Assembly: GCA_018335875.1 (NCBI GenBank)
Contig: JAGXRN010000067.1
Span: 20,688 to 84,687 of the forward strand
Origin: Dethiobacter sp.
GTDB lineage: Bacteria; Bacillota; Dethiobacteria; Dethiobacterales; Dethiobacteraceae
Length of the DNA stretch: 64,000 bases
Reading direction: 5' to 3'
The notes under the pieces are model-generated. The model saw only the letters and a list, made by a program, of their open reading frames with translations, was not told the DNA's origin and did not search any database. Of the stretch, positions 10,732 through 16,046 are shown one piece after another; the stretch's first letter is position 1; each line of letters starts with the position of its first letter. The position numbers and the translations under genes were made by a program.

Positions 10732-11145
10732 TCAGATAGCACGGTGGCCGAGCCCTATAGCCACCTCATTTAAGTGCAGTAGTCCGATGGCAAAGAAAAT
10801 GGCCACAGCTACATGGTCTCCTTTGCGGGCAATACCCACTTTGCCACCCACATTTAACCCCAGGGCTTTGGGCATGATCTGTGAAAGAGCTTCGCGCGTA
10901 GCGCCGGCCACTCCACCCTCACCAAGGTGAGTGGTTTCGATCACACCCTCTCTCTTGGCTGCTACCACAGCTCTTTCCACAACTTTCTGTACAGAGGAAA
11001 TAAATTCACCGCCGTAGTCGACGGCGGTTGCACGTATACCCTCCCTTGCCAGTTCGGATTTTAGTTCACGTTCATGTTCACGGTCAACTGTAAGGGCAAG
11101 ACGGATGGCAGCGCTTGCTATTACTTTACTTTCCAATTGGCTCAT
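10732..11145 (-). CDS. HutP-family RNA-binding antiterminator homolog
   Basis: The C-terminus DHVAVAIFFAIGLLHLNEVAIGLGHRAI resembles the B. subtilis HutP C-terminus (...IAVSLYGTIGAPIKGLEHETFGVGINHI). Length is 137 aa. It has its own TTGTCT-N17-TATAAT promoter upstream. Confidence 0.8.
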   Translation of the reverse strand: MSQLESKVIASAAIRLALTVDREHERELKSELAREGIRATAVDYGGEFISSVQKVVERAVVAAKREGVIETTHLGEGGVAGATREALSQIMPKALGLNVGGKVGIARKGDHVAVAIFFAIGLLHLNEVAIGLGHRAI

Positions 11146-11292
11146 TATTTCACCTTCCAGCGGTATAATCCGTTTATTATCGCTGGCTTCATTATACAGG
11201 AAGAATTAGTTAAAGACAATAAAAAGGCACGCTGTGCCACCTTTAAACTGAGCAAGGGAAATGCTCATATTTTTTTGTCCATCTGTTTGACT

Positions 11293-11544
11293 TCAGAAAA
11301 TATTAAGCTCAAGCGCCTCAGACAACATGTCCTTTTTAAAGCCTACTATAACAGAGTCATTAACTGTGGTCACCGGTGCTGCTTTTTGTCCTGATATAAG
11401 CCACATTTCCTCGAAGGCGTTTCGGTCTTCAATGATATTGTATTCTTTGAATTCAAAGTTATGCTGTGAAAGGAACTCTTTCACCTCAAGGCACGACATT
11501 CAGAACTTTCCCGCTGCATAAACCGTAATCACGGGTTGAGACAT
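11293..11544 (-). CDS. Glutaredoxin/NrdH-like selenoprotein candidate (UxxC), in-frame TGA at 11500-11502
   Basis: RBS GGAGAG is followed by an ATG at 11544. Translation reads MSQPVITVYAAGKF-TGA-MSCLEVKEFLSQHNFEFKEYNI...APVTTVNDSVIVGF. This is a thioredoxin fold with TGA exactly at the first position of the CxxC motif. The ORF track sees only the part 3' of the TGA. Confidence 0.7.
11466..11484 (-). promoter_or_regulatory. SECIS-like hairpin for the glutaredoxin-like gene
   Basis: On the mRNA the hairpin is GUGAAAG-AGUUC-CUUUCAC. It is a 7-bp perfect stem that begins 15 nt after UGA, with G at the second loop position. Confidence 0.45.
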
Positions 11545-11577
11545 TTTCTATCACTCTCCGTAGTCGATTCTGTAACG

Positions 11578-11799
11578 CTACTTTTTGCGGGTTGGCCAAC
11601 CCAGCAAGTCAAGTAAAATTCAATAACGCGACACACCTTCAATTATAAGGAAAACGCCCAAGAGAACGGCAACTGCAGCACCAATATAACTGCCGGGAAA
11701 AACACGCAGCGCCCCCAAAGCGACGAGTATGCTGCCTGCTATGATGCGGATGGCCATATCAAGACGGCCGATATTGCGTTTTAAACGGAATAAATACAT
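11578..11799 (-). CDS. DUF2892 (YgaP-like TM domain) selenoprotein candidate, in-frame TGA at 11620-11622
   Basis: RBS GGGAGG lies 8 nt before the ATG at 11799. Translation reads MYLFRLKRNIGRLDMAIRIIAG...IIEGVSRY-TGA-ILLDLLGWPTRKK-TAG. The TGA sits where the family has its conserved Cys (..G.CPLY.LLG..T). Confidence 0.7.
11587..11605 (-). promoter_or_regulatory. SECIS-like hairpin for the DUF2892 gene
   Basis: On the mRNA the hairpin is GC-U(bulge)-GGGUU-GGCC-AACCC-GC. It begins 14 nt after UGA, has a loop starting GG and carries a bulged U. Confidence 0.55.
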
Positions 11800-11856
11800 A
11801 AAAAAACCTCCCGCTTTAGTGTTTGGCTGCAGGAGGAAATTATGCGCCATTTAAAA

Positions 11857-12111
11857 CTATAGCATACTTAGAATGGCATACTTTACCGCCTGAAGCACCA
11901 CCCAGGCCAGCAGGGGGGAAAGATCGACCGGTAAAGAGGTTTTTGGCAATATCTTTCTGAAAGGTGCCAGCAGCGGCTCTGTGCCTTCGTAAAGCAGGCG
12001 TATCAGGGGACTTTTAGGATTGTGGGGAAGCCAAGATAATATAACGCGCGCTATTATCAGCCAAATGAGTAAATCAAAAAATAGTGCAATAATATTTGGC
12101 AGTTGTGACAC
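11857..12111 (-). CDS. YggT-family membrane protein
   Basis: 84 aa with two TM segments. The motifs ARVILSWLP and PLLAPFRKILP are typical of YggT/Ycf19. GTG start follows GGGAAGGAG, and an extended -10 (TGATACAAT) lies upstream. Confidence 0.85.
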   Translation of the reverse strand: MSQLPNIIALFFDLLIWLIIARVILSWLPHNPKSPLIRLLYEGTEPLLAPFRKILPKTSLPVDLSPLLAWVVLQAVKYAILSML

Positions 12112-12201
12112 AAAACCAGCTCCTTCCCAATACTAAGATTTATTGTATCATAAGCATCCCGGTTTGGGTAGGTGCATGCGCTTGTTTTGTATTTTTGTAT
12201 T

Positions 12202-12480
12202 TTATTGTGCGTCCCACGGCCCCGGGCAGGATACAGCGCTTAAGCTCCTGTGGTTAGAGGAGAAATGATAAATATTTTCCACCTCAGCCTGGCCTGAGGC
12301 TATAAGACGGGTGACTTTCTCAAGCCTGTCTAGGGGGAAACGGGCAGCGATGCCGCACGATGAAGAGATAATACGAGGCACAGGAATGAGTGTAACCGGC
12401 TCCTGTAGTGAATTCATCAGTTTTTCAAAGCGCAGGGCGTGGGAAACCGATGGAAATGAGGCAACGCAATATGTTTCCAA
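12202..12480 (-). CDS. DUF3343 protein (putative Se/S carrier, YedF C-terminal-like)
   Basis: FPSVSHALRFEKLM...LIPVPRIISSSCGIAARF matches the DUF3343 signature (PxPRxISSxCGxAxRF). Confidence 0.65.
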   Translation of the reverse strand: METYCVASFPSVSHALRFEKLMNSLQEPVTLIPVPRIISSSCGIAARFPLDRLEKVTRLIASGQAEVENIYHFSSNHRSLSAVSCPGPWDAQ

Positions 12481-12496
12481 GTCATTTGTCAGTCCT

Positions 12497-12721
12497 TTAT
12501 TTTTGTTTTATACTGATAATAAAATGAGTTTCCTTTTCCTCAACAGCAAAAGTATATCCGGAATTTTTCGCAAAGCGGCTGATATTCTCCACAGACACCT
12601 TGCTGTCGGATAAAATAGTCATACTGCCGGTGGATATTTTGCCCAGAAAGTCCTTTGTCCTGACAACGGGCTCAGGGCAGGATAGGCCGCGTACATCGAG
12701 GACTTCACTCTTAGACGTCAT
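12497..12721 (-). CDS. TusA/SirA-like sulfur(selenium)transferase (YedF N-terminal-like)
   Basis: LDVRGLSCPEPVVRTK carries the CPxP active-site motif. Length is 74 aa. It overlaps the yedE 3' end by 11 nt. Confidence 0.85.
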   Translation of the reverse strand: MTSKSEVLDVRGLSCPEPVVRTKDFLGKISTGSMTILSDSKVSVENISRFAKNSGYTFAVEEKETHFIISIKQK

Positions 12722-13802
12722 AGGAAACCTCTCCTTTTAAAGGAACTTTAATTTTGGGTAAAACAGCAGTGAAACCAATACTTAAAAGGAACATAAAACC
12801 AAGGACAACTCCCCATTTTCCATTGGGCGTGGCGCCTGCAGCACTCGAAGCCAGCCCGAAGTTGTGGGCGAATGCCGCACCCACGAGCATCCCCAGGAAA
12901 GACATGCCTGCATCGGCGTCACCCTCACCTGCCATCACTGTCTGACGCAGAGGGCACCCTCCAAGCAAGGTTGAACCCAGTCCCACCAAAGCCAGGCCCA
13001 GGAAATTCCAGATGCCGTCTGTGTGCGCCACGGGCTGTGAGCTAAAGCCAAGCCTGAAATAGCCAAAGCCAAGGTTAAAGATAAGGGCGGTGATAAAAAT
13101 AGCCAGTGAGCCGTAGAGAAGATGAGGGTCTTTTAAAAGAAACAGATCACGGAAGCAGCCTGCCTGGCAGAGCCTGCTGCGCTGAACAACTATTCCTATG
13201 AGCAGCCCTGCGGCAAGAGAGACAGCGAAAGGGGCTCGAAAAGAGCCGGGACCGCTTTCACTGAAAAATATAAATGCCGGTGCAACCACTGCCAGTAAAA
13301 CCAAGATAATTGCTACGGCAGGGATGGAGAGGCCGTTGGCACGGACCAGATTGACGGAGCGTCCAAGCGAAAATCCCCGCCGCAGGAAAAAGACGCCTGC
13401 AAAAATCCCGGCAATAAATCCAAAGAGTCCGACAAGAGCATTAAGGTCGCCTGCTGAGAGTCGAAGCAGCATGCGCAGCGGGCAGCCCAAAAAAACGAGT
13501 GCTCCAATCATGACAGTGAATCCCAGCAGGAAACGAAGCATAGGGGAGGAGCCGCCGCGGGCGCGAAACTCGCCTGTAAATAGAGATATCAGGAAGGAAC
13601 CAAGAATAAAGCCGGATATTTCAGGCCTCAAATATTGGACTGCTGCGGTACGGTGCAGTCCCAATCCACCCGCTATATCGCGGTAAAAGCATGCCACACA
13701 TACTCCCATGTTGGCAGGATTGCCAAATTTAACAAGCACTACGCCAAGCAATCCCAAAAAAACGCCGGAACAAACTATGAGCCGCCTTTCCAAACAGATC
13801 AC
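12711..13802 (-). CDS. yedE: YedE/YeeE-family membrane protein (selenium/thiosulfate-related transporter)
   Basis: 363-aa polytopic protein. It has GNPANMGVCVACFYRDIAG near the N-terminus and a second Cys motif (RLCQAGCFRD). Confidence 0.85.
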   Translation of the reverse strand: MICLERRLIVCSGVFLGLLGVVLVKFGNPANMGVCVACFYRDIAGGLGLHRTAAVQYLRPEISGFILGSFLISLFTGEFRARGGSSPMLRFLLGFTVMIGALVFLGCPLRMLLRLSAGDLNALVGLFGFIAGIFAGVFFLRRGFSLGRSVNLVRANGLSIPAVAIILVLLAVVAPAFIFFSESGPGSFRAPFAVSLAAGLLIGIVVQRSRLCQAGCFRDLFLLKDPHLLYGSLAIFITALIFNLGFGYFRLGFSSQPVAHTDGIWNFLGLALVGLGSTLLGGCPLRQTVMAGEGDADAGMSFLGMLVGAAFAHNFGLASSAAGATPNGKWGVVLGFMFLLSIGFTAVLPKIKVPLKGEVSYDV

Positions 13803-13869
13803 CTCTTGTAAATATTTTCACATTTACCCTAATTATATTGGCAAAACTTTGTCAGGACAAATAGCTTTC

Positions 13870-13896
13870 ATCTATAACATATTCTGACCTATAGAT
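13870..13896. promoter_or_regulatory. Inverted repeat in the divergent promoter region (candidate LysR-type operator)
   Basis: ATCTATA-N13-TATAGAT lies between yedE and the LysR gene. Confidence 0.3.
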
Positions 13897-13977
13897 AAGA
13901 TAAGGAACAAAGATTCAAAAATTCATGCAGGAATTCTACCCTGCCATGTGAAAATACTCGCACAGGAGAGTGAAAAA

Positions 13978-14889
13978 ATGGAGTTTTATCAGCTTGAAGC
14001 TTTTGTAATGGTGGTATCTCAGCGCTCATTTTCACGGGCTGCCGATATGCTCTATCTCAGCCAACCTACTGTGAGCGCTCATGTGAAGAGTCTGGAAAAC
14101 ACGCTGGGCACTGCTTTGTTCGACCGCGGCAAAGGGGAGATAATGCTTACGCCGGCAGGAGAAACACTTTACCGTTATGCCTGTGATATGCTTGATTTGA
14201 GAAAAAAAACTATCTGCGAGATCAGTGAGAAAAAAGTTAGCGCTGAAGTCCTGACAATGGCAGCCTCGTCAGTGCCCTGCCAGTATTTTTTACCAGGCGC
14301 CATAGCACGGTTTGAAAAAAAAATCCCCACTGCCACCGTGTGCCTTAAACAGGAAAACTCCCGCCGTGTTTGCGAAAGTGTGTTTAACTATCAGTACCCG
14401 CTTGGAGTAGTCGGAGAAAGACACAATCTGCCGCGGCTGGCCTATGTTCCTTTGATGGAAGATATTTTGGTGGCGGCAATCCCCAATCGTGAAGAATATA
14501 AAAGTGTTCTGGCACGAAAAGAATTGTCGGTTGAAGATCTGACAGAATTCAGGCTTCTCCTGCGGGAGCCCGGTTCAGGCACACGCTCTTTGCTGGAAAA
14601 AGAACTGCAGCGCGTGGGGGTGGGCTTGGGCCGCTTTCGTATCAGCATTTATGAAAGCCAGGAGACTATTAAGCAGGCTGTTAGACAGGGCCTTGGCGTT
14701 ACAGTAATTTCGCGCTTTGTGGTGGAAGACTATGAACAGTTCGGCTTATTGTCAACCCGTCCCTTAAGAGGGCTTGAGCTTGCGCGCCGGTTTTCTCTTG
14801 TCTACCATGACAAGCGTGTGCTATCCAATGCGGGCAGGGAACTGCGCCGGTTTTTGATATCTTTTTTTACAGCTGAGGAGGAGAAATAA
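13978..14889 (+). CDS. LysR-family transcriptional regulator
   Basis: MEFYQLEAFVMVVSQRSFSRAADMLYLSQPTVSAHVKSLE is an HTH. The ATG at 13978 follows GGAGAG. Confidence 0.9.
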   Translation: MEFYQLEAFVMVVSQRSFSRAADMLYLSQPTVSAHVKSLENTLGTALFDRGKGEIMLTPAGETLYRYACDMLDLRKKTICEISEKKVSAEVLTMAASSVPCQYFLPGAIARFEKKIPTATVCLKQENSRRVCESVFNYQYPLGVVGERHNLPRLAYVPLMEDILVAAIPNREEYKSVLARKELSVEDLTEFRLLLREPGSGTRSLLEKELQRVGVGLGRFRISIYESQETIKQAVRQGLGVTVISRFVVEDYEQFGLLSTRPLRGLELARRFSLVYHDKRVLSNAGRELRRFLISFFTAEEEK

Positions 14890-16046
14890 TGCGCGAAATC
14901 TATGCCGACCATGCAGCTACCACTTTCCCCCGCCCGCCTGCAGTGGCTGCTGCTATGACAGCTTACCTCAATAACATCGGCTGCAGTCCCGGGCGGGGAG
15001 GCTATAAAAGGTCTCTCGATGCCGCCAGGCTTGTCTATGAATCCAGGTCCCGCCTGGCGGAGTTGTTTAATGCCGCCCGCCCGGAGCAGGTGATATTTAC
15101 TCCCAGCGTTACCTACTCGCTAAACCTGTTGCTGAAAGGCCTGCTGCGCACTGGCGATCATGTGTTGGTTTCTTCTGTAGAACACAACTCAGTTGTCCGC
15201 CCCCTGTCACGCCTGGCGGGCGAACTTGAGCTCCAAGTTGAATTCCTCCAGTGCAACCCGGACTCATCCCTCGACCCGCTACAGGTGAAGAAAAAACTGC
15301 GGCCCAGTACAAGACTTGTGATTCTTACCCACGCCTCAAATGTCACCGGGGCGCTGCTGCCGGTCTATGAAACAGGGGAAATACTGGCTGGGACTGACAC
15401 TTTCTATGCCGTTGATGCGGCACAAACTGCCGGTAGTGAAGAAGTTGACTTTGCTGCTCTGCGCTGTGACTACCTGGCCTTTACCGGCCATAAAGGATTG
15501 CTTGGCCCGCCGGGAATCGGGGGCATGTGCATCAGTGAACGTGCAGCCGAGATTACAGAGCCTTTGGTAGAAGGGGGGACAGGCAGCCGCTCCGAACAGG
15601 AGCGCCAACCCGGCTTTCTGCCGGATAAATTTGAGAGCGGCACACAAAACGTGCCTGGAATTGCCGGTTTGAATGCCGGAGTTTTGACTGTACTTGATGC
15701 TGGAACAGAAGCTTTGGGCAGGCAAAAACGAGAGCTGACAGAGCGTTTCCGGCAGGGGCTTGCGCAAATCCCCGGCATCAAAGTTTACGGACCCACTGAC
15801 GCCGCCGCGACAACGGCTACAATATCTGTCAGCATAGAAGGTATGGACAGCGGAGATCTCAGCTTTATACTCGATCAGGCATACGGTATCATGACACGCT
15901 CCGGGCTCCACTGCGCTCCTTACGCCCACCGCACCTTGGGCACATTCCCCGCAGGTACGCTTCGTTTCTCATTCGGTTATGGCAGCACCCAGCTGGACGT
16001 GACAGAAATTCTTGCTGCACTAAAGGAAATAACAACCGCCAGGTAA
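14889..16046 (+). CDS. Class-V aminotransferase: cysteine desulfurase / selenocysteine lyase family
   Basis: THASNVTG, the PLP lysine in FTGHKGLLGPPGIG, and the active-site Cys in RSGLHCAP. It is translationally coupled to the LysR gene (TAATG). Confidence 0.85.
   Translation: MREIYADHAATTFPRPPAVAAAMTAYLNNIGCSPGRGGYKRSLDAARLVYESRSRLAELFNAARPEQVIFTPSVTYSLNLLLKGLLRTGDHVLVSSVEHNSVVRPLSRLAGELELQVEFLQCNPDSSLDPLQVKKKLRPSTRLVILTHASNVTGALLPVYETGEILAGTDTFYAVDAAQTAGSEEVDFAALRCDYLAFTGHKGLLGPPGIGGMCISERAAEITEPLVEGGTGSRSEQERQPGFLPDKFESGTQNVPGIAGLNAGVLTVLDAGTEALGRQKRELTERFRQGLAQIPGIKVYGPTDAAATTATISVSIEGMDSGDLSFILDQAYGIMTRSGLHCAPYAHRTLGTFPAGTLRFSFGYGSTQLDVTEILAALKEITTAR

What the first reader, a model, noticed from the sequence alone, without database searches (positions are those of the whole stretch)
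11578..11799. DUF2892 membrane protein with selenocysteine at the family's conserved Cys
The annotated frame stops at TGA (11620-11622) directly after ...IIEGVSRY. Reading through gives ILLDLLGWPTRKK and then TAG. The DUF2892/YgaP-TM family ends in a conserved G..CPLY.LLG..T motif, and the alignment RY-U-ILLDLLGWPT puts the TGA exactly on that Cys and restores the LLG..T tail. Fourteen nt after the UGA, the mRNA folds into GC-U(bulge)-GGGUU-[GGCC]-AACCC-GC. That matches the bacterial SECIS features of a G-starting apical loop about 22 nt from UGA and a bulged U. I do not know of DUF2892 being a recognised selenoprotein family.
Basis: partly seen in the sequence, partly recalled or inferred. 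Interest (0 to 1): 0.8.

Follow-up and report, generated by a model that had tools for sequence, protein, structure and literature searches.

The report
Unrecognised membrane selenoprotein (DUF2892/YgaP-like)
A tiny two-helix membrane protein that databases cut off at 59 residues almost certainly reads its UGA "stop" as selenocysteine, which adds a widespread family to the known bacterial selenoproteins; here it sits in a selenium-uptake operon.

Summary
The minus-strand gene 11799..11578 has TGA at 11622-11620, reads on as ILLDLLGWPTRKK to TAG, and has the described hairpin 14 nt after the UGA.

The selenocysteine interpretation is strongly supported:
- TGA sits at this codon in all 50 distinct relatives from look-ups and genomes, and in all 72 from metagenomes.
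- The peptide after it (x-x-Y-D-x-x-G-W-S-T) is conserved, with synonymous codon changes.
- The column holds Cys in Cys-type homologues, including E. coli YgaP Cys159 and two orthologues that keep the same GWST tail.
- The extension completes the Pfam PF11127 domain (36.9 to 53.3 bits).
- The hairpin meets every criterion of the published bacterial SECIS model. Its closing pair covaries (G-C, A-U, G-U, C-G), and the Gly, Ser and Thr codons inside it are frozen.

TGA is an ordinary stop elsewhere in the window. The gene lies in a yedE / tusA-like / DUF3343 / yggT operon beside a selenium-type LysR regulator. A glutaredoxin-like gene that also carries a conserved in-frame TGA (UxxC) follows it.

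Neither selenoprotein catalogue (2022, 2026) lists this family, NCBIfam has no model for it, and RefSeq calls members truncated.

Not shown: Sec machinery in this genome, selenium in the protein, or the function. The window's SECIS loop is GGCC; all relatives have GGUC.

The parts
11578..11799 (-). Full-length gene for a 73-residue DUF2892/YgaP-like two-helix membrane selenoprotein (M1...Y59-U60-ILLDLLGWPTRKK73, then TAG)
   Evidence: Translation. Pfam PF11127 scores 53.3 bits over residues 7-72 when U is written as C. Hydropathy shows two hydrophobic segments at about residues 15-33 and 38-56.
11620..11622 (-). In-frame TGA, proposed selenocysteine codon 60
   Evidence: TGA in 50 of 50 distinct relatives and 72 of 72 metagenome stretches. 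It aligns with Cys in the Cys-type homologues and with E. coli YgaP Cys159.
11585..11607 (-). SECIS-type hairpin: lower stem UUGC/GCAA, U11603 bulged, core stem GGGUU/AACCC (11602-11589), tetraloop GGCC (11597-11594). It doubles as codons Leu65 to Lys72.
   Evidence: Minimum-energy fold. The core stem is conserved and its closing pair covaries: G-C 33, A-U 11, G-U 4, C-G 1. Codons GGT, TCA and ACC are frozen.
11578..11580 (-). True stop codon TAG
   Evidence: Terminal stops across relatives are TAA 29, TAG 11, TGA 10, which is ordinary usage and unlike the invariant internal TGA.
11807..11812 (-). Ribosome-binding site GGGAGG, 7 nt before the ATG at 11799
   Evidence: Read directly from the sequence.
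11293..11544 (-). Downstream glutaredoxin-like gene with its own in-frame TGA (11502-11500) in a U-M-S-C redox motif, followed by hairpin GUGAAAG-AGUUC-CUUUCAC (11484-11466)
   Evidence: Pfam Glutaredoxin 39.6 bits. TGA and hairpin are conserved in 7 sequences, the window included.
11857..12111 (-). YGGT-family small membrane protein gene, immediately upstream in the same operon
   Evidence: PF02325, 76.9 bits. Adjacent to the DUF2892 gene in all nine Dethiobacter-like loci that match the window's operon proteins.
12202..12480 (-). DUF3343 'putative Se/S carrier' gene
   Evidence: PF11823, 72.2 bits.
12497..12721 (-). TusA/SirA-like (YedF N-terminal-type) sulfur/selenium carrier gene
   Evidence: PF01206, 63.3 bits. 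TIGR03527 YedF scores 61.8 bits, below its cut-off of 110.
12711..13802 (-). YedE-family putative selenium transporter gene, first gene of the operon. A promoter-like site lies at 13860-13832.
   Evidence: TIGR04112, 490.2 bits against a cut-off of 200. Promoter scan.
11226..11238 (-). Terminator-like hairpin plus T-run after the Grx-like gene; likely end of the yedE..grxU transcription unit
   Evidence: consensus scan only.
13948..14889 (+). Divergent LysR_Se regulator gene (selenium-metabolism-associated LysR)
   Evidence: NF040786, 278.7 bits against a cut-off of 250.
14889..16046 (+). Cysteine desulfurase / selenocysteine-lyase-like gene
   Evidence: TIGR01977, 428.8 bits (cut-off 377). 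SclA model NF040779 scores 387 bits, below its cut-off of 525.

Best explanation
The gene encodes a 73-residue inner-membrane protein of the DUF2892/YgaP-like family.

Decoding. Codon 60 (UGA) is read as selenocysteine rather than stop. A small hairpin starts 14 nt downstream and carries a G-G-N-C tetraloop 22 nt from the UGA. It acts as a bacterial SECIS that recruits SelB-GTP-Sec-tRNA(Sec) to the ribosome. The same nucleotides encode the invariant G-W-S/P-T motif.

Product. The protein has two transmembrane helices with both ends in the cytoplasm. Sec sits at the cytoplasmic end of helix 2, where ordinary family members have their one conserved Cys (Cys159 in E. coli YgaP).

What is shown: the conserved TGA, the frame, the Cys/Sec correspondence, the RNA covariation and the operon make-up.

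What is inferred (about 0.3 confidence): in Dethiobacter the protein is a membrane-bound chalcogen-transfer or redox site working with the co-transcribed YedE channel, the TusA-like and DUF3343 carriers, and the Sec-glutaredoxin. The glutaredoxin would reduce a Se-S or Se-Se adduct on it.
For: - TGA at the same codon in 50 of 50 distinct sequences, always after Tyr, and in 72 of 72 metagenome sequences; the same pattern written with TGY found none.
- The thirteen loci fetched only through the truncated protein, so not selected on anything downstream, all show TGA plus the tail.
- The tail after the TGA is open for at least 11 codons in every sequence. It is conserved at the amino-acid level with synonymous variation: TAT/TAC, GAT/GAC, CTG/TTG/TTA/CTT.
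- Cys orthologues carry the same tail: P0047 ...GY-C-IVMDMLGWSTY and P0048 ...QY-C-IIFDLAGWSTY.
- More distant Cys forms and E. coli YgaP Cys159 align on the same column.
- Pfam score rises by 16 to 23 bits with the extension.
- The SECIS criteria are met in the window: 4-nt loop starting GG, 5-bp upper stem, 22-nt spacing, -9.9 to -13.0 kcal/mol.
- The stem-closing pair covaries, and the structure beats all 500 column shuffles and all slid registers.
- Synonymous sites inside the stem are frozen: GGT 48/50, TCA 46/50, ACC 50/50.
- Internal TGA is 50/50, whereas terminal stops are TAA 29, TAG 11, TGA 10.
- TGA ends 13 of 44 long ORFs in the window, so the code is not reassigned.
- Context: YedE TIGR04112, LysR_Se NF040786, DUF3343, a Sec-lyase-like gene, and a neighbouring Grx-like gene with a conserved UxxC TGA and hairpin. 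YedE is reported as exclusive to Se-utilising organisms, and LysR_Se occurs only in SelD-containing organisms (PMC5322559).
Against: - No selA, selB, selC or selD was found. The window has no tRNA gene, and none of the 21 large window ORFs scanned is a sel gene.
- The window's loop is GGCC. All 49 other genome or look-up sequences and all 72 metagenome sequences have GGUC. From memory, the U of GGUC is a SelB contact in the E. coli and Moorella SECIS structures, so this copy may decode less efficiently.
- The core stem is short (5 bp). Nine of 50 relatives fall short of the -7.5 kcal/mol model threshold.
- The genome and metagenome scans were ascertained on part of the downstream peptide.
- No experimental evidence exists for Se incorporation.
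- The functional link to YedE holds only in the Dethiobacter-like clade. The other 40 loci share no recurrent neighbour.
Confidence: 0.88

Rival explanations
1. The TGA is a genuine stop. The organism makes a 59-residue truncated DUF2892 protein, and the conserved downstream hairpin is a regulatory or terminator element in a 3' UTR.
For: All gene callers and RefSeq annotate 57-59-residue products. The truncated form still passes the Pfam threshold at 36.9 bits. When selenium is scarce, termination at this UGA would indeed give that product.
Against: - A UTR would not keep an open frame of 11-21 codons in every sequence, with amino-acid conservation and synonymous codon change.
- An ordinary stop would not be TGA in 50 of 50 sequences when the true stops are 58% TAA.
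- No T-run follows the hairpin, and the terminator scan did not flag it.
- The tail is homologous to the C-terminus of the Cys forms.
Confidence: 0.04
2. The UGA is read through, but with a standard amino acid (Trp or Cys via near-cognate or suppressor decoding) rather than selenocysteine. The hairpin merely stimulates readthrough.
For: One short variant in the protein database has Trp (TGG) at this position (P0052). No Sec machinery has been demonstrated for this genome.
Against: - The hairpin has the loop, spacing and stem of the bSECIS model. Its GGUC loop is invariant in 121 of the 122 sequences across the two sets.
- The column is Cys, the residue Sec replaces, and Trp scores 10 bits worse in the family profile.
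- From background knowledge (not tested here), the carrier taxa are anaerobes known to use Sec.
- The operon is a selenium-utilisation cluster.
Confidence: 0.05
3. The gene is a pseudogene, or a sequencing or assembly error turned TGC/TGT into TGA in this MAG.
For: The window comes from a metagenome-assembled genome, and its SECIS loop carries a unique substitution (GGCC).
Against: An independent assembly (Logan SRR6231011) is identical over the gene and 99.97% identical over 3.2 kb. The TGA is shared by isolates with complete genomes and by many genera.
Confidence: 0.01

Closest known systems
Bacterial selenoprotein genes decoded through an in-frame UGA and an immediately downstream bSECIS hairpin (archetype: E. 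coli fdhF; consensus model of Zhang and Gladyshev as summarised in PMC13188914)
   Same: In-frame UGA at a Cys position. Hairpin with a 4-nt loop starting GG, 22 nt after the UGA. Cys-containing homologues with conserved flanks. GGUC loop as in the fdhF and Moorella SECIS (the last point is from memory).
   Different: The protein family (PF11127) is absent from the 87-family list of 2022 and the 119-family list of 2026, and no NCBIfam model covers it. The SECIS core is only 5-6 bp and coincides exactly with an invariant G-W-S-T peptide motif.
E. coli YgaP, a membrane-anchored rhodanese whose C-terminal two-helix domain defines Pfam PF11127
   Same: Two-helix transmembrane domain. The single conserved Cys at the cytoplasmic end of helix 2 (Cys159) aligns with the Sec. 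The region around Cys159 moves on SCN- binding (PMC4730233).
   Different: There is no rhodanese domain; this is a stand-alone 73-residue protein. Sec replaces Cys. The Sec subfamily has its own signature: E-[GA]-x3-Y-U-x3-D-x2-G-W-S-T.
Sec-containing glutaredoxin (PF00462, UxxC), a catalogued selenoprotein family
   Same: The gene immediately downstream (11544-11293) is of this type: UxxC with a conserved TGA and hairpin.
   Different: That is the neighbour, not the finding. The neighbour scores below the cut-offs of the curated Grx-like selenoprotein models: NF041212 35.5 against 66, TIGR02196 60.6 against 88.55.
YedE / YedF / DUF3343 / LysR_Se selenium-utilisation gene set (Lin et al. 2015, PMC5322559)
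   Same: All four are present around the gene and co-oriented or divergent as in that paper.
   Different: That study, as far as I searched its text, does not mention a DUF2892 or glutaredoxin component. YedF is represented here only by its TusA-like domain.

Membership tests
Bacterial selenoprotein gene (UGA-Sec with bSECIS) | In-frame UGA conserved among orthologues | tested here: met
   TGA in 50 of 50 and 72 of 72 distinct sequences. This includes 13 loci not selected on downstream sequence.
Bacterial selenoprotein gene (UGA-Sec with bSECIS) | Cys-containing homologues align Cys with the UGA, with conserved flanks on both sides | tested here: met
   P0047 and P0048 (same GWST tail) and ten further Cys forms, plus E. 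coli YgaP Cys159.
Bacterial selenoprotein gene (UGA-Sec with bSECIS) | Coding potential continues after the UGA | tested here: met
   11-21 further codons in all sequences, with synonymous variation at conserved residues. Pfam score rises by 16-23 bits.
Bacterial selenoprotein gene (UGA-Sec with bSECIS) | bSECIS model: 3-9 nt loop, 4-16 bp upper stem, G in the first two loop positions, 16-37 nt from UGA to loop, MFE <= -7.5 kcal/mol (PMC13188914 Fig. 2A) | tested here: met
   Window: loop GGCC, 5-bp upper stem plus 4-bp lower stem, 22 nt spacing, -9.9 kcal/mol (30 nt) and -13.0 kcal/mol (UGA+45). 41 of 50 relatives meet the energy criterion.
Bacterial selenoprotein gene (UGA-Sec with bSECIS) | RNA structure under selection (covariation) | tested here: met
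   Closing pair G-C 33, A-U 11, G-U 4, C-G 1, with 1 unpaired. Covariation score is 0.224 against 0.151 in shuffles (0 of 500 reach it) and at most 0.143 in slid registers. The same pattern appears in metagenomes.
Bacterial selenoprotein gene (UGA-Sec with bSECIS) | selA, selB, selC (tRNA-Sec) and selD in the same genome | not testable with these tools
   None found in the 64-kb window: no tRNA gene and no sel gene among the 21 large window ORFs scanned. The rest of the genome could not be fetched. Indirect support comes from YedE TIGR04112, LysR_Se NF040786 and a second TGA gene.
Bacterial selenoprotein gene (UGA-Sec with bSECIS) | Selenium demonstrated in the polypeptide | not testable with these tools
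   Needs 75Se labelling or mass spectrometry.
Pfam PF11127 YgaP-like transmembrane domain (DUF2892) | Profile match above the gathering threshold over the whole domain | tested here: met
   53.3 bits against a cut-off of 25.3, profile positions 2-64 of 66.
Pfam PF11127 YgaP-like transmembrane domain (DUF2892) | Two transmembrane helices | tested here: met
   Hydropathy maxima around residues 20-30 and 42-52. An AF2 model of Cys orthologue P0047 gives helices 5-34 and 39-64, but at a low pLDDT of 63.
Pfam PF11127 YgaP-like transmembrane domain (DUF2892) | Conserved Cys after helix 2 | tested here: met
   The position is occupied by the UGA codon (Sec as the Cys analogue). Cys contributes 7.2 bits relative to Ala.
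E. coli YgaP proper (membrane rhodanese) | N-terminal catalytic rhodanese domain | tested here: not met
   The protein has 73 residues and matches only PF11127. The YgaP rhodanese part has no counterpart.
Catalogued prokaryotic selenoprotein families | Listed in the 2022 or 2026 catalogue, or covered by an NCBIfam selenoprotein model | tested here: not met
   No PF11127, DUF2892 or YgaP entry appears in either table. No NCBIfam hit at E <= 0.1. No papers combine DUF2892 with selenoprotein, and none mention PF11127.

The most novel reading that the evidence does not exclude
The Sec-DUF2892 protein is the missing membrane-side acceptor in bacterial selenium uptake. Selenium entering through YedE would be captured as a Se-Se or Se-S adduct on Sec60 at the cytoplasmic face of a DUF2892 dimer. 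It would then pass to the TusA-like and DUF3343 carriers, with the co-encoded Sec-glutaredoxin resetting the site. This would also assign a chalcogen-relay role to the conserved Cys of the whole DUF2892/YgaP family.
Probability: 0.2. Interest if true: 0.75.

Novelty: new member of a known kind. Interest (0 to 1): 0.58.

Why it matters
- It adds a family to the bacterial selenoproteome that neither recent catalogue lists (119 families in the 2026 one). It is an integral membrane protein of about 75 residues, whereas the 2026 review notes that most characterised selenoproteins have a thioredoxin-like fold.
- It exposes a systematic annotation error. RefSeq and GenBank entries such as MBS4023443.1, WP_353892935.1, WP_084711038.1 and WP_227766960.1 are cut at 57-59 residues and lose the family's key residue.
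- It marks the conserved Cys of DUF2892/YgaP (function unknown) as a reactive, probably redox or chalcogen-transfer, site.
- In Dethiobacter the gene sits between the YedE selenium channel genes and a Sec-glutaredoxin. That gives a concrete, testable candidate for how imported selenium is handled at the membrane.
- The element is a clean case of one short sequence under dual constraint: the G-W-S-T peptide and the SECIS stem-loop.

Tried and rejected
I therefore could not test directly whether a U-containing record exists. No full-length record appeared among homologues of the Sec forms.
- NCBIfam gave no hit for the protein.
- Rfam gave nothing relevant in 11200-11900.
- A PDB sequence search found only chance membrane-protein matches.
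- A tRNA scan of the window and of 40 loci found no tRNA-Sec.
- No sel gene turned up among the 21 large window ORFs scanned.
- Clustering the neighbours of the 40 non-Dethiobacter loci gave no family present in more than 4 loci, so there is no conserved partner outside the Dethiobacter-like clade.
- The AF2 model of a Cys orthologue had a pLDDT of only 63. I used it only for helix limits and did not take it to fold search.
- A metagenome scan for Cys versions of the subfamily motif found none. I could therefore not test whether Cys forms relax the hairpin codons.
- Genome-wide TGA reassignment was considered and rejected.
- The terminator reading of the hairpin was considered and rejected.

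Full report
**1. The observation**

On the minus strand, the ATG at 11799 is preceded by GGGAGG at 11812-11807. It opens a frame that reads MYLFRLKRNIGRLDMAIRIIAGSILVALGALRVFPGSYIGAAVAVLLGVFLIIEGVSRY. The frame then meets TGA at 11622-11620, continues as ILLDLLGWPTRKK, and ends at TAG 11580-11578.

The hairpin is UUGC, a bulged U, GGGUU, loop GGCC, AACCC, GCAA, at 11607-11585. There are 14 nt between the UGA and the G-C pair and 22 nt between the UGA and the loop.

Alone, this fold is unremarkable (z = -1.87; 12 of 200 shuffles fold as well). The case rests on comparison with relatives.

**2. Relatives keep the TGA, the frame and the hairpin**

The Cys-substituted protein found eleven close relatives (71-100% identity). 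All were called at exactly 59 residues, and the closest is from a Dethiobacter sp. MAG.

I fetched their DNA by exact look-up of the truncated product, which puts no condition on what follows. All nine loci have TGA, then [VIF]-x-[LY]-x-x-L-G-W-S-T-[RH]-K in frame, then tails of varying length.

A profile search with the 59-residue forms found more distant 57-59-residue "truncated" proteins. The four I could fetch, at roughly 40-50% identity, show the same thing. One of them is from the complete genome of Proteinivorax hydrogeniformans.

A scan of one genome per species gave 37 further loci. They come from Syntrophomonas, Desulfosporosinus, Sporomusa, Desulfallas, Desulfotruncus, Formimonas, Frackibacter and Phosphitispora, plus Desulfobacterota and Acidobacteriota MAGs. 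All 37 have TGA seven codons before GWST. That scan was seeded on the peptide after the TGA, so amino-acid conservation there is partly ascertained. The TGA itself, the upstream domain and the codon choice were not.

A metagenome scan for E-[GA]-x3-Y-(TGH)-x3-D-x2-G-W-S-T returned 91 stretches, 72 of them distinct with full flanks, and all have TGA. The same pattern written with TGY returned none.

**3. The region after the TGA is coding**

Across 50 distinct sequences:
- The codon before the TGA is always Tyr.
- The frame stays open for 11-21 codons.
- Conserved residues are written with alternating synonymous codons: Tyr TAT 32 / TAC 9, Asp GAT 28 / GAC 20, Leu CTG/TTG/TTA/CTT.
- The real stops that end the extension are TAA 29, TAG 11, TGA 10. 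That is ordinary usage and contrasts with 50 of 50 TGA at the internal site.

In the window itself TGA terminates 13 of 44 long ORFs, including gcvPA, whose profile match runs to its end. The genetic code is therefore standard.

**4. The TGA falls on the family's Cys**

The Pfam PF11127 match stops at profile position 50 of 66 for the 59-residue product (36.9 bits). With the extension and Cys it reaches position 64 of 66 at 53.3 bits. Ala at the site gives 46.1 bits and Trp 43.2 bits. The gain is 20.7 bits for Proteinivorax and 23.1 bits for Desulfallas.

In alignments, the Sec column is Cys in every Cys-type homologue. It is also Cys159 in E. coli YgaP. Cys159 lies at the C-terminal end of transmembrane helix 2, the region reported to move on SCN- binding (PMC4730233).

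Two proteins, P0047 and P0048, are Cys versions of the Sec subfamily itself...EGILGY-C-IVMDMLGWSTY and ...QY-C-IIFDLAGWSTY. These are the classical Sec/Cys orthologue pairs.

**5. The hairpin behaves as a SECIS**

The published bacterial model asks for four things (PMC13188914 Fig. 2A):
- a 3-9 nt loop;
- a 4-16 bp upper stem;
- G in the first two loop positions;
- 16-37 nt from the UGA to the loop, and at most -7.5 kcal/mol.

The window meets all four: loop GGCC, a 5-bp upper stem plus a 4-bp lower stem, 22 nt, and -9.9 or -13.0 kcal/mol.

In the 50-sequence alignment the core GGUU/AACC is essentially invariant. The pair that closes it covaries: G-C 33, A-U 11, G-U 4, C-G 1, with 1 unpaired. 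The whole structure exceeds all 500 column shuffles and every slid register.

The closing pair is formed by the third base of the codon before Gly and the first base of the codon after Thr. So Leu/Met/Ala on one side changes together with Arg/His/Tyr/Val on the other.

Inside the stem the synonymous sites are frozen: GGT 48/50, TCA 46/50, ACC 50/50. A few sequences that change GGT to GGG also change TCA to TCT or TCC and refold in a shifted register.

The loop is GGUC in 49 of 50 and 72 of 72 sequences. From memory, GGUC is also the loop of the fdhF and Moorella SECIS elements that SelB contacts. I did not verify this here.

That U can pair with the base opposite in all but one sequence.

**6. 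Context**

The gene is fifth in a co-oriented cluster:
- yedE (TIGR04112, 490 bits);
- a tusA-like gene;
- DUF3343 "Se/S carrier";
- yggT;
- the DUF2892 gene;
- a glutaredoxin-like gene.

A promoter-like site lies before yedE, and a terminator-like site lies after the glutaredoxin gene.

Transcribed divergently are a LysR regulator that passes the curated "selenium metabolism-associated" model (NF040786, 278.7 bits against a cut-off of 250) and a cysteine desulfurase / Sec-lyase-like gene.

Lin et al. 2015 report YedE as exclusive to Se-utilising organisms. They report LysR_Se only in SelD-containing, almost always Sec-decoding, organisms (PMC5322559).

The glutaredoxin-like gene (11544-11293) has its own in-frame TGA at 11502-11500, giving U-M-S-C. 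The TGA and a GUGAAAG-AGUUY-CUUUCAC hairpin 18 nt downstream are conserved in seven sequences, the window included.

This cluster is confined to the Dethiobacter-like clade. In the other 40 loci no neighbour recurs in more than four.

**7. What is not shown**

- No sel gene or tRNA-Sec lies in the window or in the fetched flanks. I could not read the rest of the genome.
- The window's own loop is GGCC (Ser to Pro), unique among 122 sequences. It is confirmed in an independent assembly. It still fits the model but may lower decoding efficiency.
- No experiment shows selenium in the product.
- Topology (N-in, C-in, Sec at the cytoplasmic end of helix 2) is inferred from hydropathy, from charge distribution, and from YgaP's cytoplasmic rhodanese domain. 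The AF2 model is low-confidence.

**8. Comparison with what is known**

The mechanism is the ordinary bacterial one. The family is not in the 2022 list of 87 selenoprotein families or the May 2026 list of 119. It has no NCBIfam model, and no paper in the library links DUF2892 or PF11127 with selenoproteins.

RefSeq and GenBank name members "DUF2892 domain-containing protein" or "YgaP family membrane protein" at 57-59 residues.

I therefore rate it a new member of a known kind: a new selenoprotein family, not a new mechanism.

**9. Verdict**

- Observation: confirmed.
- Interpretation: supported.
- Probability that UGA60 encodes Sec in this family: about 0.9.
- The proposed role as a membrane chalcogen-relay or redox site working with YedE and the Sec-glutaredoxin is inference, at about 0.2-0.3.

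Noticed in passing
window 11293-11544 (-); TGA at 11500-11502; hairpin 11466-11484: The next gene is a glutaredoxin-like protein with an in-frame TGA in a U-x-x-C motif. The TGA and a downstream hairpin are conserved in seven sequences, the window included. Gene callers start it at the ATG just after the TGA (68 aa), so a second selenoprotein gene is mis-called in the same operon.
   Followed up: partly
window 11594-11597 (-): The SECIS tetraloop is GGCC in the window (codon CCA, Pro69). It is GGUC (TCA, Ser) in all 49 other genome or look-up sequences and in all 72 metagenome sequences. The variant is reproduced in an independent assembly (L051). Its effect on SelB binding is unknown.
   Followed up: partly
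window 10732-16046: A complete selenium-utilisation neighbourhood. On the minus strand: YedE (TIGR04112), a TusA-like gene, DUF3343 and YGGT. Divergent on the plus strand: LysR_Se (NF040786) and a cysteine desulfurase / SclA-like gene. hutP follows under its own promoter-like site.
   Followed up: partly
P0052 (48 aa) and a metagenome relative among L053-L132 (sixth translation printed): One-helix mini-variants of the Sec subfamily exist (MIISFKRNLG...LLEGIIGY-x-IFLDMLGWSTYK). The metagenome copy has TGA at the site; the database protein P0052 has Trp (TGG).
   Followed up: no
L005 4001-4738 versus L006 4001-5020: Two contigs encode the identical DUF2892 product, but only L006 has the Grx-like TGA gene after it. 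Both carry a rubrerythrin gene inserted before hutP. The cluster is being remodelled within the clade.
   Followed up: no
L005-L008: In some Dethiobacter-like genomes yedE and the tusA-like gene are missing from the cluster, while LysR_Se, the SclA-like gene, DUF3343, YGGT, DUF2892-U and Grx-U remain. The most persistent partners of the selenoprotein are therefore YGGT and DUF3343, not YedE.
   Followed up: no
alignments A2, A3 and A6: Sec forms have an invariant Glu inside helix 2 (I-E-G, residue 54), five residues before Tyr-Sec, and an Asp four residues after Sec. The distant Cys forms have Thr or Ser at the Glu position and C-P-L-Y after it. The Sec subfamily thus has its own signature beyond the Sec itself.
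   Followed up: no
L009 520-3508: A beta-propeller gene and a Uma2-family endonuclease gene are inserted between DUF3343 and yggT in one relative, splitting the cluster.
   Followed up: no
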